Origin: an uncultured Candidatus Saccharibacteria bacterium
GTDB lineage: Bacteria; Patescibacteriota; Saccharimonadia; Saccharimonadales; 2-12-FULL-41-12
NCBI GenBank assembly: GCA_947085855.1
Contig: CAMTYB010000001.1
Coordinates: forward strand, 737,421-801,420
Direction: 5' to 3'
Length of the DNA stretch: 64,000 bases
Shown here: positions 186 to 59,454 of the stretch, in pieces
Layout of the letters: every line of letters begins with the position of its first letter
How positions within the stretch are numbered: position 1 is the first letter of the stretch
Notes under the pieces: model-generated
The model's input: only the letters and a program-made list of their open reading frames with translations
Database searches by the model: none
What the model was told of the DNA's origin: nothing
Translations under genes and position numbers: made by a program

Positions 186-875
186 TTAGTCGAAGCTGCG
201 TGACAAGGTTTCCAGCTTTTGGCTGTTGAATTTGTGCAAGCGTGCCGGTCTGTGGGCGCCTTCACGGATATATTCATCGGTTGGATGAATCAGTTCCAGG
301 CTGAGGAATTTCTTGCGGAAGTTACGCTTATCGAGCGGTCGCCCGAGCACAGCTTCGTAGGCTGTTTGCAGCTGTGACAGAGTGAATAATTCAGGTATGA
401 GTGCAAAAATGGCGTTGGTATAACTTAGTTTAGAAATGAGGCGATCGTGGGCGTACTTGATAATCGAGGCATGGTCGTAGGCCAGCTCAGGTAGATTTTT
501 GACGCTAAAGAAGCCGGGCTTTTGGGTCTTTTGAGTCTCCTCTGGAATGACATTTCGACCAAGACCCATGTAGGTAATAGAGACTGCGTGGCCACGAGGG
601 TCACGAGCTATGGTGTCAAAAGTGTATAGCTGTTCAACGAGCTGCAAAGAGCTTGTTTTGACACCGGCCTTATCGGAAAGAACACGGTCCATGGCTTCTT
701 GAGTGGTCTCGCCAATGGCGTTGTAACCGCCAGGTAGTGCCCATTTGTCCTTAAACGGCTCTTTGGCTCGTTGGATAAGTAGGACTTGAAGATCGCCGTC
801 GACTATCTGAAAGATGACGCTGTCTACGGTTAGGATTGGTGGCAAATAACCATCATCGTACATACTGTCCATCAT
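186..875 (-). CDS. nrtR: NrtR-like Nudix-related transcriptional regulator of NAD metabolism
   Basis: 229 aa. The Nudix box is degenerate (GGYNAIGETTQEAMDRVLSDKAG keeps GX5EX7R but loses the REUXEE glutamates). The C-terminal winged-helix segment FTLSQLQTAYEAVLGRPLDKRNFRKKF is typical of NrtR. It lies 25 nt downstream of nadE on the same strand, with GAGGAA upstream of the ATG. Confidence 0.75.
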   Translation of the reverse strand: MMDSMYDDGYLPPILTVDSVIFQIVDGDLQVLLIQRAKEPFKDKWALPGGYNAIGETTQEAMDRVLSDKAGVKTSSLQLVEQLYTFDTIARDPRGHAVSITYMGLGRNVIPEETQKTQKPGFFSVKNLPELAYDHASIIKYAHDRLISKLSYTNAIFALIPELFTLSQLQTAYEAVLGRPLDKRNFRKKFLSLELIHPTDEYIREGAHRPARLHKFNSQKLETLSRSFD

Positions 876-8881: not shown

Positions 8882-10304
8882 GCAGCAACCAGCATTTTCA
8901 GCGTCTCATTGATGGCGGTCAGCCAGTCGGCGAAGTTATTGCAGTTGAGGGTAAGTACCTCGTGCGGATCAAAGGGCTACATCCTGTTAATATGCACGCC
9001 TTAATTATGTTTGAAGACGGCAGTAAGGGCTTTGTAACAGAGATAACGCCTGAGTATGTCACTATTTTGCACCTCGGGCAAAAACCGCTCGCAACTGGTA
9101 TGGTGGCGGTTGTTCAGCATCATGAATTGGTCTGTAAAGTCGGCAAGGACTATCTGGGTCGGGTTATATCTGTACTCGGCGAGCCTTTAGACGGTAAAGG
9201 ACCGATTGCTCCAGATGACACTGCCCCAGTGTTTAATAGTGCGCCACCACTCGCAGCACGTAAACTACTTGATACGCAGCTAGAGAGCGGCGTGGTCAGT
9301 ATCGATGCCTTGTTCCCGGTCGTTCGAGGTCAGCGTATTGCCGTGCTTGGCGATAGTAAATCTGGCAAAAGCAGTATTGCCACCCAGCTGACCATTAACC
9401 AAAAGAATACCGACCAAGTTGTGGTTTATTGCATGATCGCCAAACGTCGTAGCGACATCGATGCTCTGCTGAGCAAGCTAGAGGCCACCGATTCACTGAG
9501 CAGTGCCATTGTTATTGTGTCGACCATGTTTGAGTCTCTGATTGCTAGCTACATAGCGCCTTATGTGGCATGCGCCATGGCAGAACATTTTTGGCAAAAG
9601 CTTAATCAAGATGCCATCATCATTTATGACGATTTAACGACCCACGCTCAGGCTTATCGAGAAATTTCTCTACTCACTGGCACCAGCCCAGGTCGTGATT
9701 CGTACCCGGGTGATATGTTCTATGCGCACTCCAGCTTGTTGGAGCGGGCCGGTCGGCTGGATAGTACTGGTAAGCACCTGACTAGTATCCCAATTGTTCT
9801 AGCAGCCTCTGGTGATATTACAGCCTTTTTACCAACCAACATTATGTCCATTACCGATGGTCAATGGATTCTTGATATGGATCTTTTTCGTAGCGGTGTG
9901 CGCCCAGCAGTCAATACGGGCTTAAGTGTGACGCGTGTGGGAGGTGTCGGTCATAATAAGCGTCAAAAAACACTGGCGGCTAGTACGCTCAAAATGCTGG
10001 CTGCCTACCGCGAAGCTCTAGAGTTTTCGCACTTTGGGTCAGAATTAGCGCTTGAGTCAAAGATAGCGCTCCGTAAGGGCGAGGATATTTTTAAAATTCT
10101 CAACCAAGGTCCATCAGAAATATATTCTTTGTATGCTCAGCAACTAATGCTCGATATTGTCTTGAATGCCGAAGAAGGTGTGCAGCTCGATATTGACACC
10201 CTCAAGACGCACGTTCATGAATACGCCGCCACGATTCAGAAAGACGAAGATTACGACAAGGCACGCGACGAACTGAAGGGCAAAGCAGCCGTGGAGCTTA
10301 AGAA

Positions 10305-49622: not shown

Positions 49623-50627
49623 GTGGCTAACGCAGCGCCAATCGAACAACTTGCTCGAAACTTAGAGGGTCAATACTTCACCAACAAGCCTATCCTGGAT
49701 GTGGGAGCAGAAATTGATAATCGATTTCTGGTACGAAACGAAATAGGTAAGGGCGGCCAGGCGGTCGTCTATGGTGCATTCGACGATGTTACTGAGCAAG
49801 AAGTAGCCCTTAAAATTCCCGTGCTTGAGTCAGAAGATTCTCTCGGCAGAGCAGTTCGTGAAGCAGTCGTCACTAAGGTTCTATCGGAAAAAACCGAAGA
49901 CGTTGTGCCGTTTGTGGCGAGCGGTGTAAGCGAAAATGACTACAAACACCCGTTGCTTTATTTGGCAACCAAGCAGATGCCAAATGATACACTCGGTAGC
50001 CAGATAGCGAAGCATAATCGACGCAAAGAAGCCATGCCTATTGATGCTGTCCTGAGGGCAGTCCTGCCAGCTTGTAGGGCTCTTAAAGTAATGCATGAAG
50101 AAGAACATCTAGTGCATCGCGATATCAAAATTGGCAATGTTCTAATCGACGAGCATGGCAATGGTCGATTAGCCGACTTCGGTATTGTGGCGGCCGAAAG
50201 ATTTGAGCCTGAGTTTTTTGAAGATCAGCACATTTCACCAGATGTCGTGCTGGGTTCACTGACGGCAACCGAGTCTCTGGTAGGTGTTTTACAGAATATG
50301 CCGCCAGAAGTTATATTTAGCGAACAAGGCTTTACCGAAGAGTCGGACACTTTCTTGACAGGAGTGATGTTGCATCACACTTTGACTGGATCTTCGCATA
50401 TGCCTCGAACCAGTAATACTCCGACTATGCATCGGTACAATATGGAGCACTATGCGCCACCGATCGCAGCAGATTTTGGTGGTCATGTGCCGAGAGACCT
50501 CGCGCAGCTCGCAATCGCCTGTTTGGACCGTCAGCCCCAGCACAGACCAACTATGAGTGAAGTGGTCGTAAAACTCGAAGATGAAGCTCTTCAAGTCGAA
50601 GCTTCAGCAAATCTGGTTGCCGCCTAG
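49623..50627 (+). CDS. Hanks-type Ser/Thr protein kinase (soluble, 334 aa)
   Basis: GTG start. G-loop GKGGQAVVYGA, VALKIP, catalytic loop HRDIKIGNVLI, ADFG and PPE. Confidence 0.85.
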   Translation: MANAAPIEQLARNLEGQYFTNKPILDVGAEIDNRFLVRNEIGKGGQAVVYGAFDDVTEQEVALKIPVLESEDSLGRAVREAVVTKVLSEKTEDVVPFVASGVSENDYKHPLLYLATKQMPNDTLGSQIAKHNRRKEAMPIDAVLRAVLPACRALKVMHEEEHLVHRDIKIGNVLIDEHGNGRLADFGIVAAERFEPEFFEDQHISPDVVLGSLTATESLVGVLQNMPPEVIFSEQGFTEESDTFLTGVMLHHTLTGSSHMPRTSNTPTMHRYNMEHYAPPIAADFGGHVPRDLAQLAIACLDRQPQHRPTMSEVVVKLEDEALQVEASANLVAA

Positions 50628-50876: not shown

Positions 50877-50952
50877 GCGGGTGTAGCTCAGTTGATAGAG
50901 CGCTTCCTTGCCAAGGAAGAGGCCAGGAGTTTGAGTCTCCTCACCCGCACCA
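50877..50952 (+). tRNA. tRNA-Gly(GCC), CCA encoded; integration target (attL)
   Basis: Hand-folded. GCGGGTG/CACCCGC acceptor; anticodon arm CTTCC-TTGCCAA-GGAAG; T-arm AGGAG-TTTGAGT-CTCCT; then ACCA. Its last 18 nt recur at 57484-57501 and 58341-58358. Confidence 0.92.
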
Positions 50953-52495
50953 TACGAGCATTATCGGACACTTCGGTGTCCTTTTTGTTTGTCGCCAATC
51001 TGATAAGAGGACTAATTTCAGGGGTGTAAACATTTTTATTGTTGTCCAAGTAAAATCCACCTGGAAAAATGATTTGTTTACACTTTTGGACATCCTCAGG
51101 TGTTAGCGAGAAGAAGCTCTCTTTCAGGTTAATGGCGAAGTTGAATGCGAAGTCTAGAAAACGCTGCCTATCAGTATCAGATTTTTCATTCAGTGTCGCT
51201 TGCTCTTCTTCGAGGCTTGTTATTTGAGATTTCATCTTTTCAATATTAGACATAATCTCTTGCTTAATTGGCTTATTCGATGGATCAATGGCAGCCAACG
51301 CACGATTATCTATATCCTGACGAAGAGAGTTAATCTGCTTGCCGACACGAGCACTGTCCTGCTTGGCTTGGGCATTCTTTCTATTCCAGACATTATCTAG
51401 GGCTTCTGACAGGTTTCTTATGCCCGCTTCAGACACGGGGTTATCAATAAATAGTTGAGCAACTTTTGAGTGCAATTCGTCTCGGGTAATCAAGAGGCCA
51501 CAGGAACGACATTTATACCTAGCATAAATAACATTATGATTTTTACCGTTATCGTGGTCGAACCCGACCAACTTACCTTTGTTTTTTAGTTCTAAGCAGG
51601 TGTTGTGTTGAGTAATAGTGTTTAGTGGAAAATTTGGGTTGCCGTTCTTTCGAGGTCCGGTTTGATTTTTCTTCTTATCCGTAAATATTCTTACCAATTC
51701 ATAATGCTGATCCAGAGTGATTAGGGGATCGTGTAAGCCGTCTTCATTGCGTACTTTGACCTGTTGGTTAATCTCGACAGTGCCAGCATAGAATGGATCA
51801 GTAGCTATATTACGAAATTTGTCCATTTTTAATGGTGCTCGTTCTGAGGTGTAATCGCTTTTGTTTAATTCAATCAATCCATTAGTAGGAGTAACTGCAT
51901 GTTCCGCTATGCGTACTAGTACATTACGTAGAGCAGTACCTCTGACTGGATGTATCTCTGGCACCCCCGTTCGTGCCCCTTTCATATAGCCAGCTTTGGG
52001 ATGAAATGTATATCTTCCATCTTTGAGAGCAGTTGTATGGCCGGAAATGGATTTATGTATACGCTCCTCGTTGCTACCTTCAGCCTTGTATGCCTCAAGC
52101 ATTAGAAGCAGTGTATTGGCAGCGTTGTCTGTATTGAGAGTTGGCTGTGAAGCAAAGACAACCTTCACACCATGATTGTTAAATTGAACCAGGAAATACC
52201 CTATCTCAAGTATTGAACGCATAAAACGGTCAAGCTCATCGATGATTACATACTTAATTTGTTTATTCTGTTTACAAAGCTCCAACATTTCCTCTAAGTC
52301 TTTACGCTTCACATTGGTGCCAGCTTTACTACTGACACTTCCTGACCACACACGTATAATTTCTACACCAAGTTTCTCGGCGGCAGCATAAACAGAAGTT
52401 TCCTGACGAGACAGACTGTTATTCTCTTCTTGTTCTACACTCGATACCCTGCAGTTTGCTATTGCTAGTATTTTCTTAGACGTCATTTTTGCCAC
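50888..52495 (-). CDS. large serine recombinase (integrase)
   Basis: 535 aa. The N-terminal resolvase catalytic domain reads AIANCRVSSVEQEENNSLSRQ. It also has a recombinase domain, the zinc ribbon YKCRSCG and a long coiled coil. The last ~22 codons read antisense through tRNA-Gly. Confidence 0.88.
   Translation of the reverse strand: MAKMTSKKILAIANCRVSSVEQEENNSLSRQETSVYAAAEKLGVEIIRVWSGSVSSKAGTNVKRKDLEEMLELCKQNKQIKYVIIDELDRFMRSILEIGYFLVQFNNHGVKVVFASQPTLNTDNAANTLLLMLEAYKAEGSNEERIHKSISGHTTALKDGRYTFHPKAGYMKGARTGVPEIHPVRGTALRNVLVRIAEHAVTPTNGLIELNKSDYTSERAPLKMDKFRNIATDPFYAGTVEINQQVKVRNEDGLHDPLITLDQHYELVRIFTDKKKNQTGPRKNGNPNFPLNTITQHNTCLELKNKGKLVGFDHDNGKNHNVIYARYKCRSCGLLITRDELHSKVAQLFIDNPVSEAGIRNLSEALDNVWNRKNAQAKQDSARVGKQINSLRQDIDNRALAAIDPSNKPIKQEIMSNIEKMKSQITSLEEEQATLNEKSDTDRQRFLDFAFNFAINLKESFFSLTPEDVQKCKQIIFPGGFYLDNNKNVYTPEISPLIRLATNKKDTEVSDNARMVRVRRLKLLASSLARKRSIN
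50966..50986 (+). terminator. rho-independent terminator of the tRNA operon, supplied by the island side of attL
   Basis: GGACAC-TTCG-GTGTCC followed by TTTTT. Confidence 0.6.
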
Positions 52496-52709
52496 CTTGA
52501 TTTCTGTTTAATTCTATTACTGGACAATTGCTATTATATATGTCATAGATAAGTTCTGCCAAATCAAAAGCATCCCTTTTTCTTTGCTGTAAAGGAGTTG
52601 GTTCTGCGGTGTTTTTATCTTCGTCTTGATTTTTTTGTGTTGACTTGTGAGGAGGTGGAGCTGAAAAAGCAAGCTTTGACCCAACAGACACCTCTAATGG
52701 ATGAGACAT
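52476..52709 (-). CDS. small hypothetical protein upstream of and overlapping the integrase start
   Basis: 77 aa, overlapping the recombinase ORF by 20 nt. No motif recognised. It could be an accessory or directionality factor, or it could be non-coding. Confidence 0.35.
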   Translation of the reverse strand: MSHPLEVSVGSKLAFSAPPPHKSTQKNQDEDKNTAEPTPLQQRKRDAFDLAELIYDIYNSNCPVIELNRNQGGKNDV

Positions 52710-53086
52710 ATAGTCCCTTTCATTAGTGCCAGTCGGGGCATGATCCGACTTTAGCGTTTTAGGTTTCTGTGGGGAATTATTAGTTTGTTCGTATTAGCCG
52801 AACAGTTAGGCTACTATGCCAAAAGCTCACTCACTACTTATGACCTAATTATACGCTTATGCTTGCAAATTGTCAAGTTTTTGATGATAAAATATGCCGT
52901 TGGTACCGTGCAGTCTCCGAAAAAAGTATGTGAGCTGTTGCTAGTAATGTATGAGATCTAAAAGATGAACGAGAATACCCTCTGTAACCTCTCTGGAGAC
53001 GCCTAGAGCGTGTTTGGGCATTAAGTTGAGTAAATGTCCATTCTGTATAATTAGTAATAGAAATCAAAAAAATAAAGAGGAGCTTT

Positions 53087-53320
53087 ATGACTACGAAAAA
53101 TGCGATAGGCAGACCATTGAAAGTAGATGCTAAAGTCATAACAAAGTTGATGGCTGCACTACAAACCAACTCTAATATTAAAGACGCATGTAGCTATGCA
53201 GGTATTAGCCGTCAGACTTATTACTTTTACCAAAATAATGAATCTGTGTCCGCCGAAAAAATGAAAATAGCCAGAAATAATAGGAACAAATTGATGATGA
53301 GTTTTCTGACAGTTTGGTAG
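53087..53320 (+). CDS. small helix-turn-helix protein (resolvase-type HTH)
   Basis: 77 aa with a strong SD (AAAGAGGAG). GRPLKVDAKVITKLMAALQTNSNIKDACSYAGISRQTYYFY resembles GRP...HTH_7-type DNA-binding domains. Confidence 0.6.
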   Translation: MTTKNAIGRPLKVDAKVITKLMAALQTNSNIKDACSYAGISRQTYYFYQNNESVSAEKMKIARNNRNKLMMSFLTVW

Positions 53321-53418
53321 CTAAACCAGTTTCGTTTGCTATGTTTTTAAGAAAAATGGTGTCAGATAAAGTAATAATTAATCGACACCCTGTTTCGTAT
53401 CTGTTTTTATGACATAAT

Positions 53419-56343
53419 ATGAGCATGAACAATGGGTTAAGGCTGTTTAAGACTGTATTTTCAACATATCCTAAGAGGCAAACTTTTTTTATTGCTATTA
53501 TTCTTGCGACTATTGCATTGTTTTACTTTATCTTCAAGCTTGATGCACATAGTATTGGCATAAGACTTCCGGTTGTCTTGGCTGGATTTATATCTGGAGA
53601 ACACGAACTGGAGTTTATCACTGATGTATCAACATTTTTCGGACTTGTCTTGGGTATTGCCATTCCATTTGGTATTGAAATTGTTCAGACAGTCTCAAAA
53701 AATTTCTCAAATTCTAAGGTTTTAAGGTCACGCTTCAGAGACGAGTGGCAGATGATTGTGCTTGTACCTTTCTATATCGCAACACTATTGGTTGCGGTTT
53801 CCTCTCGCATGTTCATTAATGACACCCATCCTGACCTTGAGCGTGCCGTGTCGTTCAGCCTTCTCATATGTTTGTTTATCGGCATACTAATATTTGCAAA
53901 ATATATAAATAGACTTTATTTGTACACTCTTGACCATCGTCAGTTAAAGAGCGAGATAGAATCAGATCTAGGCAGCACGGTCGGTATTAATAAGTCTAAA
54001 TTCTCTGATTACATAGAAGGATTTGGCGATATTGCAGTTACTGAGGTTAAAAACAATGATAGTAAAGCAGTACTTACGGAATCGCTACCATTCTTAGAGA
54101 ATATTATTGAGCAAATTGTACCTAAGGGCGACCTAGAAAATGCAGAGAAGTTTTTGCTTAATGATGAATTTTGGGAGATGTATAAGCGTGGTAAAGTTGC
54201 AAAAACCGAATCCGAAAAGGCAGAAGAAGATACTGAGCTAGAAGATCCAAAATTTGTTGATTGGACTGAAGAAGCAAAGATGCGGCTATATTTTGACCCC
54301 GAAAAATACGTGTCATCTTACTCAAATGTGATTCAGCAAATAGAAAGAATATATCGTGAAGCAATAAAAAACAAAGATGATGAGCTGGCACGTAATGCCG
54401 CCTATTCGTTTACCAGAATACTCAAATATTTAACTTCAGAGCCTCAACGAGATTTATATGTAGAAATGCTCCTTAAAAAGATGGCGTTTTTATTGAGAGA
54501 CGCAGTCAAGTTCGATACTGTCTCTAAATATGCACTCGCAACTGATTGGTATACTTCGGTCGTCTTTGATAGTTTTGGCGACACTGAATTCGATATTAGC
54601 TACTTGGGCACTGTGAATAAATACCTTTATATGAATCTTAAGTTCTTTGTTAATGAGGATCACAAAGATTTGTTTGAGTCATTTATTGGGCATTTAGTCG
54701 ATGGTAGCATGGGCTTCCAATCATTCGATCGAATATGGGACTTGAGCAATCTACCACTAAGAACGAATAATCAATACACAACCGATTATGACGAAATACA
54801 TAACATGACTACGGAAATTGAAAATGCGAGAAGCCAGATCGAAAAGACAGAAGATTTAGATGAATGGATTAAAAGATTAGACTCACTTCTTAAATTGGTT
54901 CTTAAGTCGTTATCGAAAAAATCAGATAAAGCTGAAGCAAAGAAGATCTATGAGAAAGCAAAATCTGACACGGTCGAGTTATATAAAAGTAATAATATGA
55001 TTGGACAGATTTTTTCATTGAATATGTACTGCTTCTTTAAGAGGAAGTATGACTTCGTGAAGAAGGTCATTGATTACAAACAGCCGGAGGACTCTGATGC
55101 AAGCTGGGGTGGAAGCGATATACAGCCTAATACCCCGAATGACATAGTAGCTTTCTTCTACCGTAAGGGTTATTACGATAGGGATGAGCATTTTTTTGAA
55201 GGACACCACGGTAGTCGAATATATACAAACGAGTATTTTCTAATCTTACTGCTAACAAGCTTGAAACGATCGAGCACAGCAGAGGTGTCTGTCACAGGCA
55301 TTAAAAGTGCCTACAGATTAAGTGATATTACATTCACCCATGACTATTTAGTTTCAGTAGCCAACGAACGACTGAAGACTAATAATGACATGCTAGAAAC
55401 ATTTAATATTTCAGTTGAAGATATAGACGATATACTTTTGCCTGCATTGGAATCAATCAAATCGCAGGCGGAAGCAGCTATGGAGGCACTAGAACAATCA
55501 AATACGATTGAACCTGACAAGGTTAAGGAATTTAAGGACGAGGTACTTAAAACATATAAGGAAGGGGCTGTAGTAAGACAACTCTTTGAGCATTTTGGAC
55601 AGATTACTGCCGATGATACTTACATTGAGGGTAATGAGCCACCTCGTTTTGGGATTTATAAAGTAGATCAAAAAGCCCCATTCTTTAAGGAATGGAATGT
55701 TTCATACGGCAGACAGGGTGAGTCATACGGTTCGAGTCTAGCCCCTGCCGAGAACTTACACATGTATAACGAACTTAGAGAGAGTGTATCTAAAACATTC
55801 GATGATGTAACACAAGCTCTTGAGTTATGTGACCCGAAAAGTACTGTTCTACTAATGCCAAGTAAGATTCTGTATAGGTACGAGGAAGACTCTGCATTCA
55901 TACCGAAATGGCAGTCCAAGAGATCTCTGGGCGAAATAGAAGATATGCACGGTTATAGCGGTTACTATGAGTATGGCAAGGAAGCAATTCCTGTATTCGA
56001 AATAGGCTACCCATCAAAAGAGCGGGATGAATTTATGGTGATCGACTTTTCAAAGTCTGGGAAAATTAAGAACCTCAATCCATCTGGCAAGGAAACTCAA
56101 GAGGGAGATGTCTTGGAAAACCTATCAGTCAGTGTCCAGGCATTTATGGATAATGATGAGCTAATGAATATGTACTTAGATGAGCCACCAAAATGGCTTG
56201 CTGATATATCTACGGATCGTGAGAAGCGGAAGGTATATCTTATGAAGCGGGTAGCGATCAGAGTATTTACTCGATACGTAATCACTAAACCAAAAGACAG
56301 GAAGATCTACCTGATCCAACTGCAGTCCGAGAAAAAAGTCTAG
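53419..56343 (+). CDS. 974-aa protein of unknown function, with an N-terminal multi-TM module and a large soluble region
   Basis: The ORF is long and uninterrupted in an AT-rich context. About 5 hydrophobic helices lie within residues ~22-162, and the remaining ~800 aa are K/E/D-rich and helical-looking. I could find no P-loop, nuclease, protease or kinase motif. The extended -10 TGACATAAT (53410-18) abuts the first ATG, so the ATG at 53425 is an alternative start. Confidence 0.7.
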   Translation: MSMNNGLRLFKTVFSTYPKRQTFFIAIILATIALFYFIFKLDAHSIGIRLPVVLAGFISGEHELEFITDVSTFFGLVLGIAIPFGIEIVQTVSKNFSNSKVLRSRFRDEWQMIVLVPFYIATLLVAVSSRMFINDTHPDLERAVSFSLLICLFIGILIFAKYINRLYLYTLDHRQLKSEIESDLGSTVGINKSKFSDYIEGFGDIAVTEVKNNDSKAVLTESLPFLENIIEQIVPKGDLENAEKFLLNDEFWEMYKRGKVAKTESEKAEEDTELEDPKFVDWTEEAKMRLYFDPEKYVSSYSNVIQQIERIYREAIKNKDDELARNAAYSFTRILKYLTSEPQRDLYVEMLLKKMAFLLRDAVKFDTVSKYALATDWYTSVVFDSFGDTEFDISYLGTVNKYLYMNLKFFVNEDHKDLFESFIGHLVDGSMGFQSFDRIWDLSNLPLRTNNQYTTDYDEIHNMTTEIENARSQIEKTEDLDEWIKRLDSLLKLVLKSLSKKSDKAEAKKIYEKAKSDTVELYKSNNMIGQIFSLNMYCFFKRKYDFVKKVIDYKQPEDSDASWGGSDIQPNTPNDIVAFFYRKGYYDRDEHFFEGHHGSRIYTNEYFLILLLTSLKRSSTAEVSVTGIKSAYRLSDITFTHDYLVSVANERLKTNNDMLETFNISVEDIDDILLPALESIKSQAEAAMEALEQSNTIEPDKVKEFKDEVLKTYKEGAVVRQLFEHFGQITADDTYIEGNEPPRFGIYKVDQKAPFFKEWNVSYGRQGESYGSSLAPAENLHMYNELRESVSKTFDDVTQALELCDPKSTVLLMPSKILYRYEEDSAFIPKWQSKRSLGEIEDMHGYSGYYEYGKEAIPVFEIGYPSKERDEFMVIDFSKSGKIKNLNPSGKETQEGDVLENLSVSVQAFMDNDELMNMYLDEPPKWLADISTDREKRKVYLMKRVAIRVFTRYVITKPKDRKIYLIQLQSEKKV

Positions 56344-56345
56344 TA

Positions 56346-57221
56346 ATGAGTACCACGAAAGTCGAAGAAATAAATTCAATGTTTTTCGGAGACGAAAGGA
56401 CACACCGCTATCTATTAGACGTGTATCGAGAGTGTGTCGAGAAATTTATAGTAGCAAATGTGCTGGTTGAAGTCTGGGCACGAACAAAGGCAGGACATGA
56501 GCATATTAAGGGCAGGAACTGCAATACATGTGCTGTGTTCTTTCAGATTTATTATTCTTGCGTTGATTCGACATTCTTGCACCTGCGTTTGTTATTCTCT
56601 AAAAAAGAACCAGCCCTTGCGAGTTCTTTCTTGGAATCAGTCAAAGCTCTAGAAATGAAGGATTTTAAGAAATATTATGACGCTAAGTATGATCATAAAA
56701 TAAATAAAGATGAGCAAAAAGTTATTGAGCCACTATTTGTTCTGGCAGAAGATAATACTCAAAAAATATCCGACTTGTATTTGAAGCGTATCGAACCGTA
56801 CCAGGCATTTGCGTTCCATCAACCTAAAGACGGTAAGTATTATAAAGTTACTACAAGTGAGCGAGCCGATGAAGGTATGAGGTTTGTCACACATACCCTT
56901 GAGAAGAAATTCAAAAGAGACCTACAGCCTGCAAAAGAAATGCTAGAGTTGATTGCAGATGTCATCCATCTTTATTTGAGACTATCCAGTAAGTACTATC
57001 ATGTCCTAAAAATTTATCCTAAAAATTACGTTAATGAGATGGTATCAATACTAGGCGTAGAGAGTGTTGGCGAGACAACGATTTCTGAAATGATTAATAA
57101 TGCCACAATTGCCACAGAGAAACTCATACATCTACTTGAATGTAGCGGTGGCTTGGATAGTCATAATGGGTTACTTGTTGCAAAATTACAATCTGCACTA
57201 AGAAGCGATAGCAATTGCTAG
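56346..57221 (+). CDS. 291-aa soluble all-alpha-looking protein of unknown function, coupled to the 974-aa gene
   Basis: Only 2 nt separate the upstream stop (TAG at 56341-43) from its ATG (56346). It has no TM segment and no recognised motif. Confidence 0.7.
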   Translation: MSTTKVEEINSMFFGDERTHRYLLDVYRECVEKFIVANVLVEVWARTKAGHEHIKGRNCNTCAVFFQIYYSCVDSTFLHLRLLFSKKEPALASSFLESVKALEMKDFKKYYDAKYDHKINKDEQKVIEPLFVLAEDNTQKISDLYLKRIEPYQAFAFHQPKDGKYYKVTTSERADEGMRFVTHTLEKKFKRDLQPAKEMLELIADVIHLYLRLSSKYYHVLKIYPKNYVNEMVSILGVESVGETTISEMINNATIATEKLIHLLECSGGLDSHNGLLVAKLQSALRSDSNC

Positions 57222-57355
57222 TGCCTAGTGTAAGTACCAGCACTCACCTTATACCAGAGAACTCACGATATTGAACGTTTAACAGCGACCTCCATCGGTT
57301 GTATTCATCCCGTATAGAGTGAAAACTTTTTTCCATATCCTGCACCATGAAAAGA

Positions 57356-57379
57356 GTCGATCTTCGGATCGGCTTTTTT
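57356..57379 (+). terminator. rho-independent terminator of the cargo operon
   Basis: GTCGATC-TTCG-GATCGGC (one GU pair) followed by TTTTTT. It is preceded by an A-run, so it may act bidirectionally. Confidence 0.6.
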
Positions 57380-57419
57380 CATGCATGGTCACGGGCGCAA
57401 ACTCCATGCCCGTCAGGGC

Positions 57420-57501
57420 AGAGTTTGATAATTGGAAGCTCTCGCAGAAGCTCGCTTCGAGAAAGCTGAACAATTTCCGCCCTGTCTCCTCACCCGCACC
57501 A
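57420..57501 (+). repeat. 82-bp direct repeat R1 (attR of the island); its last 18 nt equal the tRNA-Gly 3' end
   Basis: AGAGTTTGATAATTGGAAGCTCTCGCAGAAGCTCGCTTCGAGAAAGCTGAACAATTTCCGCCCTGTCTCCTCACCCGCACCA. It is identical to R2 at 76 of 82 positions. Confidence 0.85.
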
Positions 57502-57517
57502 ACCATAAGCACTATGA

Positions 57518-57541
57518 AAAGAGACCTCAAGGTCTCTTTTT
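57518..57541 (+). terminator. rho-independent terminator immediately after R1
   Basis: AAAGAGACC-TCAA-GGTCTCTTT followed by TT. Confidence 0.55.
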
Positions 57542-57591
57542 GATACCTGAGGATAATAAGTCTATTATAGGTTTATAAACAGAGGAGTATC

Positions 57592-58191
57592 ATGCGAAAA
57601 ATTATTGTCCAAGAATTTGTCACAATTGATGGCGTAATGCAAGCACCAGGCGGTCCGGAGGAAGACCCGACAGCCAAATTTGAATTTGGAGGTTGGCAAG
57701 CCCCATTTATGGACGACGATGCAGCGGAATTAGTAACTGGTCCAGCACTCAAGGCTGATGTTGAATATTTACTAGGGGGATACACATTTGACATATGGTC
57801 CGGCTATTGGCCCAAGCACGGTCAAATTTGGCCATTTATAAATGACAATATGAAGTATGTTTTATCGGCTACAAAGACCGAAACGAACTGGCAAAACACC
57901 ACTTTCCTGCGAAACGTGGAAGATATTACAAAGTTGAAGAACTCAAATGGTCCTGACCTCCACGTTTGGGGCAGTAGTAAGTTGGTGCAATTACTCCTTG
58001 CAAACGATCTTGTAGACGAACTCTGTCTTATGACCTATCCGATTATTCTTGGTCAAGGAAAAAAGCTTTTCAGCGATAATGCAGTTCCAAGAACATTCAC
58101 GCTCATTGAAAATCATGTCGGTAGCAAAGGTGTCATTGTCGCTCGCTACGCACGCGCGGGTGCAATTGAAACTGGCATAGTCGGCGAATAA
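57592..58191 (+). CDS. dihydrofolate reductase-like protein (RibD C-terminal domain family)
   Basis: 199 aa. MRKIIVQEFVTIDGVMQAPGG... and ...LHVWGSSKLVQLLLANDLVDELCLMTYPIILGQGKKLF are typical of the RibD_C/YwjB-like family. Confidence 0.8.
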   Translation: MRKIIVQEFVTIDGVMQAPGGPEEDPTAKFEFGGWQAPFMDDDAAELVTGPALKADVEYLLGGYTFDIWSGYWPKHGQIWPFINDNMKYVLSATKTETNWQNTTFLRNVEDITKLKNSNGPDLHVWGSSKLVQLLLANDLVDELCLMTYPIILGQGKKLFSDNAVPRTFTLIENHVGSKGVIVARYARAGAIETGIVGE

Positions 58192-58276
58192 CTTCAATAG
58201 ATTATTCTATTCTTGATTATGCTACTGACTGGGATGGTAGGTGCACCTAGCAACTTACCATCCACTAGCGCATCAA

Positions 58277-58358
58277 AGAGTTTGACAATTGGAAGCTCTA
58301 GCAGAAGCTTGCTTCGAGAAAGCTGAACAATTTCTGACTTGTCTCCTCACCCGCACCA
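58277..58358 (+). repeat. 82-bp direct repeat R2 (outermost attR); probably carries the original tRNA-Gly 3' end
   Basis: AGAGTTTGACAATTGGAAGCTCTAGCAGAAGCTTGCTTCGAGAAAGCTGAACAATTTCTGACTTGTCTCCTCACCCGCACCA. Confidence 0.85.
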
Positions 58359-58395
58359 ATTACAGAAACGGTGTACTTCTGTTAAAATAACAGAT

Positions 58396-58468
58396 GATGC
58401 GGTGACCGAGAACAGGTGGTAGCTTGCAAAGCTACATACGGCAGCTTCGTGTCTGCCCCGCATCTCCA
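58396..58468 (+). tRNA. tRNA-Cys(GCA)-like gene with atypical D- and T-loops (could be a pseudo-tRNA)
   Basis: Hand-folded. Acceptor GATGCGG/CCGCATC with discriminator T followed by CCA, as expected for Cys. The anticodon arm is GTAGC-TTGCAAA-GCTAC. The D-loop has no GG, and the T-arm GGCAG-CTTCGTGT-CTGCC has an 8-nt loop lacking A58. Confidence 0.5.
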
Positions 58469-58473
58469 AAATT

Positions 58474-59454
58474 ATGACAGCACAAGACTACATACAAACC
58501 AAACTTAAAGAACTGAAACAGCCAGTTGGATTAAAGAAGCCCGATAATACGGATGAGCTGGTAGAAGCTATTTTTAAGGCTTTGATGTCCAAGAAGTTTC
58601 GTAAGTATTCTGCTAACGAAGACCTGCAAAAAAGTGTCAGAACTGCCATTAGAATTAACGTTGAGAAGAACGAGCCAATCAACGTAACTTTTCTGCACGG
58701 TGCATACAAGCTGTGGCGATTAGAAGAAGCTCCTGAAACCGATTGGGCGGAACTCTTTTCACTTATGTACTATTCAGCTTGGGTAAAGCCAATATGCGAG
58801 ATTTACGAGCCAGGCGTATGGTTTGACTTCTTCGTAGACGACTACATCATCAACCGCCTAGACAACATACCGATGTCAGACGTTCAAGCTTACATAGATA
58901 GTTACCAATCACTTATAGATTTCCTAAAACCGTACCAGCCGAGCAACCTCAAAATGACAATAACAACCGTCGGTGGTCAGTTCCCGTCAGAAGATGCCTT
59001 TGATAAGTCGTTAGAAGCAAACCTTGAAAAGTTAACAACAGAAACCCCTGGCGGTTTGCCCGAACTTAATGACGCTCAACGAGCTATGGTTGAATTAAAT
59101 ACTAAAGCGACAGACGAACAGCTAAAAGACCCTAAATGGCGAGAGAAGGTCTTTCACTTGCACAATGCCTATATGGCTACGAAAGCCGAACCTGGTTATC
59201 ACAAAGGAAGACCAGAAAAGATTATGGCGTTCACGCAACCACTACCATCTGGCACTACCATTTCAGTAGGCACAACTAAGAGTTCAATTATGAAGTTCTG
59301 GGTAGGTGTTGGTGTATTACGGCGGAAAGAGGATAGCTATAGCCAAGTCATACTTTCGCCGAGCCAACTTGAAAAGTCGCAGTTTAATCTTGAGGACGTT
59401 CAGATCGACAACTTAAACGGTAAAAACTTTAAGAAAGTGAGGGTTATGAAGTGA
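58474..59454 (+). CDS. hypothetical enzyme-like protein (326 aa)
   Basis: The ATG lies 5 nt after the tRNA-Cys-like CCA and has no SD. The segment EPINVTFLHGAYKL...PETDWAELFSL...ICEIYEPGVWFDFFVDDYIINRLDNIPMSDVQAYIDSY loosely recalls the PvcA/Dit1-family pattern. That comparison is from memory only. Confidence 0.55.
   Translation: MTAQDYIQTKLKELKQPVGLKKPDNTDELVEAIFKALMSKKFRKYSANEDLQKSVRTAIRINVEKNEPINVTFLHGAYKLWRLEEAPETDWAELFSLMYYSAWVKPICEIYEPGVWFDFFVDDYIINRLDNIPMSDVQAYIDSYQSLIDFLKPYQPSNLKMTITTVGGQFPSEDAFDKSLEANLEKLTTETPGGLPELNDAQRAMVELNTKATDEQLKDPKWREKVFHLHNAYMATKAEPGYHKGRPEKIMAFTQPLPSGTTISVGTTKSSIMKFWVGVGVLRRKEDSYSQVILSPSQLEKSQFNLEDVQIDNLNGKNFKKVRVMK

What the first reader, a model, noticed from the sequence alone, without database searches (positions are those of the whole stretch)
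50877..57501. Serine-recombinase island inserted in the 3' end of tRNA-Gly(GCC) with an exact 18-bp att core
**att sites.**
- GTCTCCTCACCCGCACCA runs from the 3' strand of the T-stem through the encoded CCA. It occurs in the intact tRNA-Gly (50935-50952) and again at 57484-57501.
- The intervening 6.5 kb starts with a 535-aa large serine recombinase abutting the tRNA.

**Other island genes.**
- A 77-aa ORF overlaps the integrase start.
- A divergently placed 77-aa resolvase-type HTH protein (53087..53320) is a candidate regulator or directionality factor.

**Notable features.**
- The island supplies the terminator for the tRNA operon (50966-86).
- An 18-bp identity is long for serine-recombinase att cores, which are often only 2-16 bp. 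The long identity may exist simply to rebuild the tRNA.
Basis: partly seen in the sequence, partly recalled or inferred. Interest (0 to 1): 0.55.

Follow-up and report, generated by a model that had tools for sequence, protein, structure and literature searches.

The report
Integrase gene split by its own insertion

Summary
The 18-mer GTCTCCTCACCCGCACCA is real but occurs three times (50935, 57484, 58341), and it is not the att core.

**What the island is**
- It is a large-serine-recombinase (LSR) island at the 3' end of tRNA-Gly(GCC). Its limits are 50953-57347 (6,395 bp, GC 0.39 against 0.46 for the window).
- The shared core is only GCACCA(T), at 50947-53 and 57342-48.
- attP lies inside the recombinase ORF. 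Joining 50953 to 57347 gives a 548-aa protein whose last 34 aa are encoded by a "tail exon" (57244-57347) at the far end of the island.
- In the integrated state those residues are replaced by 21 aa read antisense through the tRNA.

**Support**
- Six database homologues carry the tail as one continuous ORF.
- Two related elements assembled as closed circles (5.4 and 5.1 kb) with uninterrupted genes.
- In 39 further loci with a tail hit the tail exon lies 3.2-11.2 kb upstream of the gene; where the automatic junction comparison registered (about 35), the junctions share mostly 6-9 bp.
- In 57 of 77 loci the gene abuts a tRNA, 41 of them tRNA-Gly(GCC).
- In relatives with the identical tRNA-Gly, the sequence found after 57348 follows the tRNA directly.

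**The 18-mer copies**
Copies 2 and 3 end ~150-nt tRNA-3'-mimic units, which occur after several tRNAs in Saccharibacteria. Their origin is unresolved.

**Precedents**
Streptococcal rumA ICEs, phage Mx8 and archaeal SSV-type integrases. This is a new variant of a known kind.

The parts
50877..50952 (+). tRNA-Gly(GCC), intact, with encoded CCA. It is the integration target (the B arm of attL).
   Evidence: ARAGORN; Rfam tRNA 70.4 bits.
50947..50953 (+). attL core GCACCA(T): the last two acceptor-stem bases, the discriminator and CCA, plus one T.
   Evidence: Identical 7-mer at 57342-57348. The core TGGTGC is shared by both junctions in about 35 loci.
50966..50986 (+). Intrinsic terminator for the tRNA operon, supplied by the island. 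It lies inside the recombinase coding sequence on the other strand (codons KKDTEVS).
   Evidence: Terminator scan. The hairpin plus A/T-run is kept with different stem sequences in the P' arms of 30 loci.
50888..52495 (-). Large serine recombinase, integrated-state ORF (535 aa). Residues 1-514 are island-encoded (50953-52495); the last 21 aa are read antisense from tRNA-Gly.
   Evidence: phrog_95 integrase E=5.4e-41. Foldseek to SPbeta, Bxb1 and phiC31 integrases, E about 1e-9 to 1e-12.
52476..52709 (-). 77-aa ORF overlapping the recombinase start. Conserved C-terminal motif (..QQRKRDAxDLAELIYxIYN..CP). Candidate accessory or directionality factor; function not shown.
   Evidence: tblastn hits in 9 related loci at the same position, including the circle L020. 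Syntenic small ORFs.
52848..52876 (-). Promoter-like site TTGACA-17-TATAAT (12/12) upstream of the orf77-recombinase pair.
   Evidence: This is a consensus match only.
53087..53320 (+). 77-aa HTH protein, divergent from the recombinase operon. Candidate regulator.
   Evidence: Up to 83% identical in 9 related loci, including the circle L020. phrog_4102 TerS-like HTH, E=4.9e-10. Pfam HTH hits are sub-threshold.
53419..56343 (+). Cargo: 974-aa protein with a hydrophobic N-terminal region; function unknown.
   Evidence: No Pfam, PADLOC or PHROG hit. Only 6 homologous clusters in 5.8 billion proteins.
56346..57221 (+). Cargo: 291-aa protein; function unknown.
   Evidence: No family hit. It travels with the 974-aa gene on the 6,441-bp contig, whose 974-aa homologue is 99% identical.
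57244..57347 (-). Tail exon: the last 34 codons plus stop of the recombinase as read in the excised, circular form (MVQDMEKSFHSIRDEYNRWRSLLNVQYREFSGIR*). It is the P arm of attR.
   Evidence: The same tail is continuous in P0018, P0020, P0059, P0071, P0081 and P0093. It is found in about 40 loci. Median dN/dS is about 0.29, and 35 of 36 copies have no stop.
57342..57348 (+). attR core GCACCA(T).
   Evidence: It aligns with the GCACCA of the intact tRNA-Gly in L016, L018 and L011.
57349..57501 (+). Unit U1, not part of the island. It consists of a spacer and terminator hairpin (57356-57381), a degenerate antisense copy of the tRNA-Gly 3' part (57384-57412), a sense copy of the variable-loop/T-stem 5' strand (57413-57428), hairpin P3 (57429-57483), and copy 2 of the 18-mer (57484-57501).
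   Evidence: It is collinear with the sequence directly after tRNA-Gly in L016, L018 and L011.
57502..58358 (+). Cassette E2, with no recombinase. It holds a terminator, a 199-aa RibD_C-family gene (57592-58191) and a partial unit (58277-58358) ending in copy 3 of the 18-mer.
   Evidence: The same cassette, 86% identical, lies downstream of a tRNA-Gly in another genome (L102), bounded by ..GCACCA on both sides.

Best explanation
**What it is (shown).** Window 50953-57347 is a 6.4-kb integrative element of a large family found almost only in Saccharibacteria. It is driven by a divergent large serine recombinase (LSR). The element's attachment site attP lies inside the recombinase ORF, 34 codons before its stop.

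**What integration does (shown).** The element is inserted at GCACCA, the extreme 3' end of tRNA-Gly(GCC). The tRNA stays intact, and a terminator embedded in the recombinase coding sequence ends up behind it. The recombinase gene is split. The body (514 codons) stays next to the tRNA and now ends in 21 tRNA-antisense codons. The 34-codon tail exon ends up 6.4 kb away at the other end of the element.

**What excision does (inferred for this copy).** Excision to a circle rejoins the two parts into a 548-aa gene. This is seen directly as closed circles in two relatives.

**Function (inferred, not shown).**
- The two protein forms probably differ in activity, so the integration state feeds back on recombination.
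- The likeliest version is that full-length protein made from the circle performs attP x attB integration.
- The truncated form would then be less active, or would need the conserved small ORFs for excision.

**The 18-bp repeat.** It is unrelated to this element's recombination. Copies 2 and 3 are the 3' ends of tRNA-Gly-mimic units, each made of a terminator, an antisense copy, a sense copy with a hairpin in the T-loop, and the tRNA 3' end. The first unit was already downstream of the tRNA when the element inserted. The second closes a recombinase-less RibD_C cassette. The origin of these units is unresolved. At least some serve as secondary insertion sites for this family.
For: 1. **Conserved far-end block.** Window 57226-57347 is conserved at the far end of the islands in L005 (90%) and L002 (74%) and ends in (T)GCACCA in all three. 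Homology stops there.
2. **Junction ORF.** Joining 50953 to 57347 gives one ORF of 548 aa. The same operation in L002 and L005 gives tails of the same length that are similar at protein level. Joining at the 18-mer gives an unrelated tail.
3. **Continuous homologues.** P0018, P0020, P0059, P0071, P0081 and P0093 carry this tail as one continuous ORF. Others end in tRNA-antisense tails.
4. **Closed circles.** L020 (5,409 bp) and L116 (5,116 bp) each have an exact 30-bp terminal overlap, an uninterrupted recombinase and TGGTGC inside the ORF. In L020 another ORF reads across the join.
5. **Survey of 80 genome loci.**
   - The protein match stops at residue 517 in nearly all.
   - 57 of 77 have an antisense tRNA abutting the gene, 41 of them tRNA-Gly(GCC).
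   - The tail exon lies on the same strand 3.2-11.2 kb upstream in 39 loci.
   - The junction pairs share mostly 6-9 bp, with TGGTGC common to them.
6. **Selection on the tail.** 35 of 36 tail exons have no stop, and median dN/dS is about 0.29.
7. **Empty-site architecture.** In L016, L018 and L011, which have the identical tRNA-Gly, the tRNA is followed directly by a segment collinear with window 57348-57501. The tRNA's GCACCA aligns with 57342-57347.
8. **LSR identity.**
   - PF00239 matches the N-terminal domain.
   - R16, S18, D89, R90 and R93 are invariant.
   - phrog_95 integrase matches residues 3-446 at E=5.4e-41.
   - Foldseek hits SPbeta, Bxb1 and phiC31 integrases and 4kis.
9. **Composition.** GC is 0.387 against 0.464 for the window.
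10. **Units are independent of the island.** They occur after tRNA-Leu, Phe, Lys and Met genes that have no recombinase next to them.
11. **Units as targets.** In L033 and L050 the recombinase abuts a unit-like pseudo-tRNA end rather than the tRNA.
Against: - No read-level or contig-level circle or empty site was obtained for this exact element. The exact 545-aa circular-form protein is not in the 15-billion-protein collection.
- The near-identical 6,441-bp contig has no DNA on hand.
- The 7-mer core is common on its own (16 copies in the window, about 9 expected). The boundary therefore rests on homology, not on the repeat.
- A 30-bp terminal overlap could also arise from head-to-tail tandem copies rather than a free circle.
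- The tail exons were found by protein similarity, which biases dN/dS downward.
- The structure model is only moderately confident (mean pLDDT 65.8, pTM 0.31). Pfam does not detect the Recombinase or zinc-ribbon domains even at E<=10.
- Nothing here shows that the two protein forms differ in activity.
- The origin of the tRNA-mimic units is not explained.
Confidence: 0.82

Rival explanations
1. The island is 50953-57501, the 18-bp repeat is the att core, and the long identity exists to rebuild the tRNA.
For: The exact 18-mer occurs at 50935 and 57484, with 0 expected by chance. In 6 of 57 related loci a second copy of about 18 nt of the tRNA end also lies beyond the island.
Against: - There is a third copy, and copies 2 and 3 share an 83-nt repeat.
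- Joining at the 18-mer gives a non-conserved tail.
- 51 of 57 related islands have no such copy. Where one exists, it lies 120-190 nt beyond the tail-exon junction.
- The circles L020 and L116 have the tail fused directly at TGGTGC.
- The segment 57348-57501 follows the tRNA directly in island-free relatives.
Confidence: 0.04
2. The element is a fixed relic. It integrated once, the split killed the recombinase (a 'suicidal' integration as in SSV-type archaeal integrases), and the copy in this window can no longer move. The circles seen elsewhere are free plasmid-like relatives, not excision products.
For: - No circle or empty site was found for this copy.
- No strain-level relatives with the same flanks exist in the collections.
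- Archaeal precedent: split integrases may be unable to excise (PMC8371274).
Against: - All element ORFs are intact, and so is the tail exon.
- The tail exon is kept under purifying selection in 35 of 36 integrated copies, although it is not part of the gene in that state.
- An element whose 974-aa cargo protein is 99% identical occurs in a different sample, on a contig that ends at the core.
- Cargo differs completely between related islands at the same tRNA, which implies repeated turnover.
Confidence: 0.1
3. The whole stretch 50953-58358 is one composite array that moves through the outer 18-bp repeats, using another recombinase supplied in trans. The serine recombinase would be a passenger.
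For: There are three direct 18-mers. E2 has no recombinase, yet it occurs as a discrete cassette in another genome.
Against: - No other recombinase lies in 50953-58358.
- E2 in L102 is bounded by GCACCA, not by the 18-mer.
- Units occur on their own after several tRNAs, with no cargo.
- The serine recombinase's own junctions are precisely defined.
Confidence: 0.04

Closest known systems
Phage and element large serine integrases (phiC31, Bxb1, A118/LI, SPbeta SprA, TP901-1)
   Same: - N-terminal serine-recombinase catalytic domain with the R/S/D-R-x-x-R residues.
- Predicted recombinase domain and a Cys/His zinc ribbon carrying a long coiled coil.
- Short identity between attP and attB.
   Different: - attP is inside the enzyme's own ORF.
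- Pfam Recombinase and Zn_ribbon_recom models do not match.
- The target is the CCA end of a tRNA gene.
- The carriers are 3-11-kb elements in which no phage or conjugation genes were seen.
Streptococcal ICEs integrated in rumA, whose serine integrase gene contains the att site (Ambroset et al. 2016, PMC4701971)
   Same: It is a serine integrase. The att site lies within the integrase gene, so the excised element encodes an integrase of different length and C-terminus.
   Different: - Those are large conjugative elements in Firmicutes that insert in a protein-coding gene.
- Here the elements are minimal, the host is a CPR bacterium and the target is a tRNA 3' end.
- Here the excised-form tail is a conserved 34-aa segment traceable across the family.
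Myxophage Mx8 IntP/IntX
   Same: attP lies within the int coding sequence. Integration creates a new 3' end of int and changes the enzyme's properties (PMC6070905, PMC4701971).
   Different: It is a tyrosine integrase in a 49-kb phage. A 112-residue C-terminus is replaced by 13 residues.
Archaeal SSV-type 'suicidal' integrases
   Same: The att site lies inside the integrase gene, the gene is partitioned on integration into a tRNA gene, and the partition has been proposed as a directionality control (PMC8371274).
   Different: They are tyrosine recombinases, described in that review as exclusive to Archaea. The split there removes a larger part of the protein.
tRNA-gene genomic islands of tyrosine integrases (Islander-type)
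   Same: They insert at the 3' part of a tRNA gene, the element restores the gene, and a displaced fragment marks the far end (PMC4383910 abstract).
   Different: Here only 6-9 bp are duplicated, the enzyme is a serine recombinase, and the longer displaced-looking fragments (the 18-mers) belong to other modules.

Membership tests
Large serine recombinase (LSR / serine integrase) | N-terminal resolvase-type catalytic domain with the nucleophilic Ser and the Arg/Asp/Arg cluster | tested here: met
   PF00239 E=4.8e-17, residues 12-161. R16, S18, D89, R90 and R93 are invariant in 13 family members. PDB sequence hits to TP901-1 integrase and resolvase catalytic domains.
Large serine recombinase (LSR / serine integrase) | C-terminal recombinase domain (PF07508-type) | tested here: inconclusive
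   No Pfam hit even at E<=10. However, the phrog_95 integrase profile aligns to residues 3-446 at E=5.4e-41. Foldseek aligns about 330 columns to the 4kis C-terminal domain (E=1.8e-6) and about 500 columns to SPbeta, Bxb1 and phiC31 integrases. The model has pLDDT 65.8.
Large serine recombinase (LSR / serine integrase) | Zinc-ribbon domain with an inserted coiled coil | tested here: inconclusive
   C300, C329 and C332 are invariant, and most members have CxxC at 297-300. Beta strands are predicted at 309-337, followed by two long helices at 356-437. There is no Pfam Zn_ribbon_recom hit.
Large serine recombinase (LSR / serine integrase) | Short att sites that share little beyond a central crossover dinucleotide | tested here: met
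   Junction pairs share mostly 6-9 bp, with TGGTGC common to them. The attP consensus has a dyad-symmetry peak at TGGTG|C, 0.41 against about 0.25 background. The crossover dinucleotide itself was not determined.
Large serine recombinase (LSR / serine integrase) | Excision requires a recombination directionality factor | not testable with these tools
   The candidates are the two conserved 77-aa ORFs. There is no functional evidence.
Integrases whose att site lies inside their own gene (Mx8 IntP, SSV-type, rumA-ICE serine integrases) | attP located within the integrase coding sequence | tested here: met
   The ORF is continuous across the core in the circles L020 and L116 and in six database proteins. 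The reconstructed junction ORF is continuous in the window, L002 and L005.
Integrases whose att site lies inside their own gene (Mx8 IntP, SSV-type, rumA-ICE serine integrases) | Integration changes the encoded C-terminus | tested here: met
   The 548-aa form ends ...MVQDMEKSFHSIRDEYNRWRSLLNVQYREFSGIR. The 535-aa integrated form ends ...MVRVRRLKLLASSLARKRSIN.
Integrases whose att site lies inside their own gene (Mx8 IntP, SSV-type, rumA-ICE serine integrases) | The two forms differ in activity or specificity | not testable with these tools
   This is inferred only from conservation of the tail and from the Mx8 precedent.
tRNA-gene-targeting integrative element | Inserted in a tRNA gene, with the gene regenerated and a direct repeat at the far end | tested here: met
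   The tRNA-Gly is intact. GCACCAT is repeated at 50947 and 57342. 57 of 77 family loci abut a tRNA.
tRNA-gene-targeting integrative element | An empty site exists in relatives | tested here: inconclusive
   Empty-site architecture is seen in L016, L018 and L011, which have the identical tRNA-Gly. No strain-level empty site could be found, because the flanking genes are unique or are themselves mobile.

The most novel reading that the evidence does not exclude
The split gene acts as a built-in directionality switch for a serine integrase. Only the circle encodes the full-length enzyme, whose 34-aa tail would be required for attP x attB integration. The integrated copy makes a tail-less form that cannot re-integrate or super-integrate, and that excises only with the conserved small ORFs. 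Tandem neighbours restore full-length enzyme by read-through into the next element's tail exon. In addition, the tRNA-3'-mimic units would be maintained as extra landing pads for this family.
Probability: 0.25. Interest if true: 0.75.

Novelty: new variant of a known kind. Interest (0 to 1): 0.6.

Why it matters
- Mobile elements of Saccharibacteria and other CPR bacteria are barely described. My literature searches found nothing on this family.
- This is a very widespread family: more than 700 protein clusters, and 125 of 291 candidate stretches in species-representative genomes encode a relative.
- The elements are compact and have a precisely definable attP and attB at a conserved tRNA end. 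That makes them a natural candidate for a site-specific integration tool in organisms that are very hard to manipulate genetically.
- They move accessory genes into very small genomes. One relative carries a CBASS-type nucleotidyltransferase.
- Putting attP inside the integrase ORF yields two enzyme forms tied to the integration state. For serine integrases this has so far only been noted in passing (rumA ICEs), and it bears on how directionality can be controlled without, or in addition to, an RDF.

Tried and rejected
1. **Genome scan with the upstream kinase** (49623..50627) as anchor for empty sites: no relatives found. The kinase is a cluster of one.
2. **Empty-site search through close relatives of the downstream genes.**
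   - The RibD_C cassette and the 326-aa gene with its tRNA-Cys-like leader turn out to be mobile cassettes in unrelated contexts.
   - They therefore cannot serve as flanks.
3. **Exact look-up of the predicted circular-form protein:** absent from the collection.
4. **The 6,441-bp contig,** whose 974-aa cargo protein is 99% identical: gene layout only, no DNA.
5. **Rfam on the window region and on five loci with units:** only tRNAs.
6. **PADLOC, Pfam and PHROGs on the cargo:** nothing. A homologue search for the 974-aa protein found 6 clusters, with no names or domains.
7. **Search for second copies of the tRNA end within 10 kb in L002, L004 and L005:** none. This first showed that the 18-mer is not a family feature.
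8. **Ideas for the units that did not fit**
   - A T-box-like element was rejected because the order of elements is wrong.
   - A target-site duplication was rejected because the copy length varies from 16 to 29 nt.
   - An attR scar of this LSR family was rejected because integration duplicates only 6-9 bp.
9. **Crossover dinucleotide:** dyad symmetry points to G|C in TGGTGC. Both arms are coding, so I do not claim it.
10. **Window 529-542:** a 14-mer resembling the T-loop region is a chance match inside a coding region.

Full report
**1. Observation**

- ARAGORN and Rfam place tRNA-Gly(GCC) at 50877-50952, last in a Val-Phe-Gly cluster.
- The 18-mer GTCTCCTCACCCGCACCA is exact at 50935 and 57484, as reported. 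It is also exact at 58341, and none is expected by chance.
- Copies 2 and 3 end an 83-nt direct repeat that is 93% identical.
- The ORFs are as described. The 535-aa ORF carries a Resolvase catalytic domain.
- That ORF runs antisense through the terminator hairpin at 50966-50981 and 65 nt into the tRNA.
- The host is a Saccharibacteria genome. The recombinase has 721 homologous clusters, and those with names are from Saccharimonadales.
- The homologues are typically 516-520 aa and cover only 96% of the query. This was the first hint that the last ~20 aa are not native.

**2. The true right end**

- Relatives of the recombinase (73-87% identical) in L002 and L004 also abut tRNA-Gly(GCC) antisense, with entirely different cargo. 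They have no second copy of their tRNA end within 10 kb.
- blastn then showed that window 57226-57347 is conserved at the far end of the islands in L005 (90%) and L002 (74%).
- In the alignment this block ends in (T)GCACCA in all three, and homology stops there.
- GCACCAT occurs at 50947-50953 and 57342-57348.
- The 7-mer alone is common, with 16 copies in the window. The boundary therefore rests on homology, not on the repeat.

**3. attP lies inside the recombinase gene**

- Joining the minus strand at 50953|57347 gives one ORF of 548 aa ending ...SDNARMVQDMEKSFHSIRDEYNRWRSLLNVQYREFSGIR.
- The same operation in L002 and L005 gives tails of equal length and similar sequence. Joining at the 18-mer gives an unrelated tail.
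- Six database homologues carry this tail as a continuous ORF: P0018, P0020, P0059, P0071, P0081 and P0093. Others end in tRNA-Gly-antisense residues (...MVRVRxL...).
- Two of the continuous genes lie on contigs with exact 30-bp terminal overlaps, the signature of a closed circle in a k=31 assembly.
  - L020 is 5,409 bp, and a 309-aa ORF reads across the join.
  - L116 is 5,116 bp.
  - In both, TGGTGC lies inside the uninterrupted ORF.
- A head-to-tail tandem would give the same assembly. That arrangement would also contain an attP-type junction.

**4. Family survey**

- A scan of species-representative genomes with alignment A2 returned 80 loci, nearly all Saccharibacteria MAGs. The protein match stops at residue 517 in nearly all of them.
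- 57 of 77 loci have an antisense tRNA abutting the gene. 41 are tRNA-Gly(GCC); the rest are Gly(UCC), Glu, Val, Lys, Arg or Ala.
- Several of the loci scored as having no tRNA read into tRNA-like ends or into neighbouring elements.
- The tail exon lies on the same strand 3.2-11.2 kb upstream in 39 loci. The two junctions share mostly 6-9 bp, with TGGTGC common to them.
- 35 of 36 tail exons have no stop. Median dN/dS is about 0.29, a rough figure biased by how the exons were found.
- A segment that is not part of the gene in the integrated state is thus kept as coding sequence. This argues that the elements regularly pass through the joined form.
- Three IMG/VR contigs show the same layout.

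**5. Empty-site evidence**

- Thirteen metagenome contigs carry the identical 3' part of the tRNA-Gly gene (the 27-nt search pattern and the tRNA sequence upstream of it).
- In L016, L018 and L011 the tRNA is followed directly by a segment collinear with window 57348-57501. The tRNA's GCACCA aligns with 57342-57347, while upstream the tRNA sequence replaces the tail exon. This is the attB-to-attR relation expected for the short core.
- L013 has a recombinase of this family at the same tRNA.
- A strain-level empty site could not be obtained.
  - The upstream kinase has no relatives.
  - The downstream genes are themselves cassettes found elsewhere.
- An element whose 974-aa cargo protein is 99% identical lies on a 6,441-bp contig from another sample.

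**6. What the enzyme is**

- Pfam sees only the catalytic domain, and so does a PDB sequence search.
- The phage integrase profile phrog_95 aligns to residues 3-446 at E=5.4e-41.
- The AlphaFold model has mean pLDDT 65.8. It shows a catalytic domain, a long helix E, a helical domain, beta strands with Cys/His ligands, two long helices at 356-437, and a C-terminal helix at 511-537 that is the tail.
- Foldseek's best hits are full-length SPbeta, Bxb1 and phiC31 integrases (E about 1e-9 to 1e-12, about 500 columns) and the LI integrase C-terminal domain 4kis.
- R16, S18, D89, R90, R93, C300, C329 and C332 are invariant.
- I file it as a divergent large serine recombinase. The recombinase and zinc-ribbon domains are supported by profile and fold, not by Pfam.

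**7. Other parts of the element**

- The 77-aa ORF overlapping the recombinase start and the divergent 77-aa HTH protein are each conserved in 9 related loci, including the circle L020.
- The HTH protein matches terminase-small-subunit-like HTH families, not a resolvase HTH.
- A 12/12 consensus promoter lies upstream of the small-ORF-recombinase pair.
- The terminator behind the tRNA lies inside the recombinase coding sequence. Across the family it is kept as a hairpin plus A/T-run with different stem sequences.
- The cargo (974 aa and 291 aa) has no recognisable family and very few relatives.
- Cargo in relatives varies: a UvrD-like helicase set, metabolic genes, DUF6602, and a CD-NTase.

**8. 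The 18-mer copies**

- Copy 2 ends a ~150-nt unit, U1 (57349-57501). It consists of a spacer and terminator, a degenerate antisense copy of the tRNA 3' part beginning TGGT, a sense copy of the variable-loop/T-stem 5' strand, a hairpin inserted at the T-loop, and then the exact tRNA 3' end.
- Copy 3 ends a partial unit that closes a recombinase-less RibD_C cassette. That cassette recurs in another genome, bounded by GCACCA.
- Units of the same design lie beyond the tail-exon junction in L031, L060 and L067 (tRNA-Gly alleles, each matching the resident tRNA), L081 (tRNA-Arg) and L096 (tRNA-Lys).
- They also follow tRNA-Leu, Phe, Lys and Met genes that have no recombinase next to them.
- Rfam has no match.
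- In L033 and L050 the recombinase abuts a unit-like end rather than the tRNA, so units can be used as insertion sites.
- Their origin is unresolved. I considered scars of another element class, extension of the terminator palindrome, a tRNA-like RNA, and landing pads.

**9. Comparison and novelty**

- An att site inside the integrase gene is known for three groups.
  - Tyrosine integrases of Mx8 (PMC6070905).
  - Archaeal SSV-type elements (PMC8371274).
  - Serine integrases of streptococcal ICEs in rumA, where it was noted in passing (PMC4701971).
- I found no paper on such elements in Saccharibacteria.
- The present case is therefore a new variant of a known kind. It is a deep-branching LSR family in CPR bacteria on minimal elements. 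It targets the CCA end of tRNA genes and has a conserved 34-aa excised-form tail.
- Whether the two protein forms differ in activity is inferred, not shown.

Noticed in passing
Related loci L062:14389-14504, L031:3421-3536 and 9277-9389, L096:348-462, L030:6458-6563, L043:7965-8073, and others: A conserved structured module of about 90 nt (GTGAGAAATGCCAGTGGCATTTCGCAAGGGAATCTTC...TGAAGTTnCGGGnCCGCGGAACGTGG). nhmmer finds 13 copies in about 100 loci. RNAalifold predicts 34 pairs, 25 of them with compensatory changes. There is no Rfam match. It sits either in the T-loop of a 3' tRNA-mimic unit or inside a 5' partial copy of tRNA-Gly about 50 nt upstream of the real gene. It is not present in the window.
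   Followed up: partly
L011, L039, L054, L062 (two), L063, L081; window 57349-57501: A second copy of a tRNA's last 16 nt or more (at most 1 mismatch) lies 82-192 nt downstream of tRNA-Leu, Phe, Lys, Met and Gly genes. Each is preceded by a terminator and a degenerate antisense copy of the tRNA 3' part. This is a general feature of Saccharibacteria and is unexplained.
   Followed up: partly
window 58378-59438: A tRNA-Cys(GCA)-like sequence (58396-58468) is called by ARAGORN only at a lowered threshold. Together with the 326-aa gene it forms a cassette found at 86.5% identity in unrelated contexts, after tRNA-Asn, in L106-L112. There is a compensatory change in the acceptor stem (GATGCGG/CCGCATC to GATGCGA/TCGCATC).
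   Followed up: partly
window 57502-58358; L102:9906-10697: The RibD_C (dihydrofolate-reductase-like) cassette is 86% identical to a cassette downstream of tRNA-Gly in another Saccharibacteria genome. There it is bounded by ...GCACCA on both sides, in a tandem array of cassettes.
   Followed up: partly
L116 (5,116-bp circular contig): A related element, assembled as a circle, carries a CD-NTase (SMODS / DncV-like / AGS_C) and a 172-aa gene. This is a CBASS-like defence cargo on a 5-kb integrative element.
   Followed up: no
L005:11570-18821: A second, different LSR (549 aa, with the Pfam Recombinase domain) occupies the tRNA-Gly site. It pushes the element of the family studied here to second place. 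The junction between the two elements keeps only GCACCA of the tRNA end.
   Followed up: partly
Proteins P0041 and P0043: Two family members end in a third, mutually similar tail (...VRSLD[KN]RWN...). It is neither the tRNA-antisense tail nor the usual excised-form tail. It may reflect another tail type or another target.
   Followed up: no
L021 (P0071), L022: In tandem arrays the inner element's recombinase reads into the neighbouring element's tail exon, so it is full-length although the element is integrated.
   Followed up: partly
Logan contig of 6,441 bp, sample ERR12037361 (no DNA held): A contig with the island's gene order, a 99%-identical 974-aa cargo protein (its 291-aa protein shares a >=90% cluster) and about the island's size. 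The recombinase gene is cut at the contig end after 512 codons, which is at the att core. This is compatible with a circle, or with a branch point in the assembly graph at the att site.
   Followed up: partly
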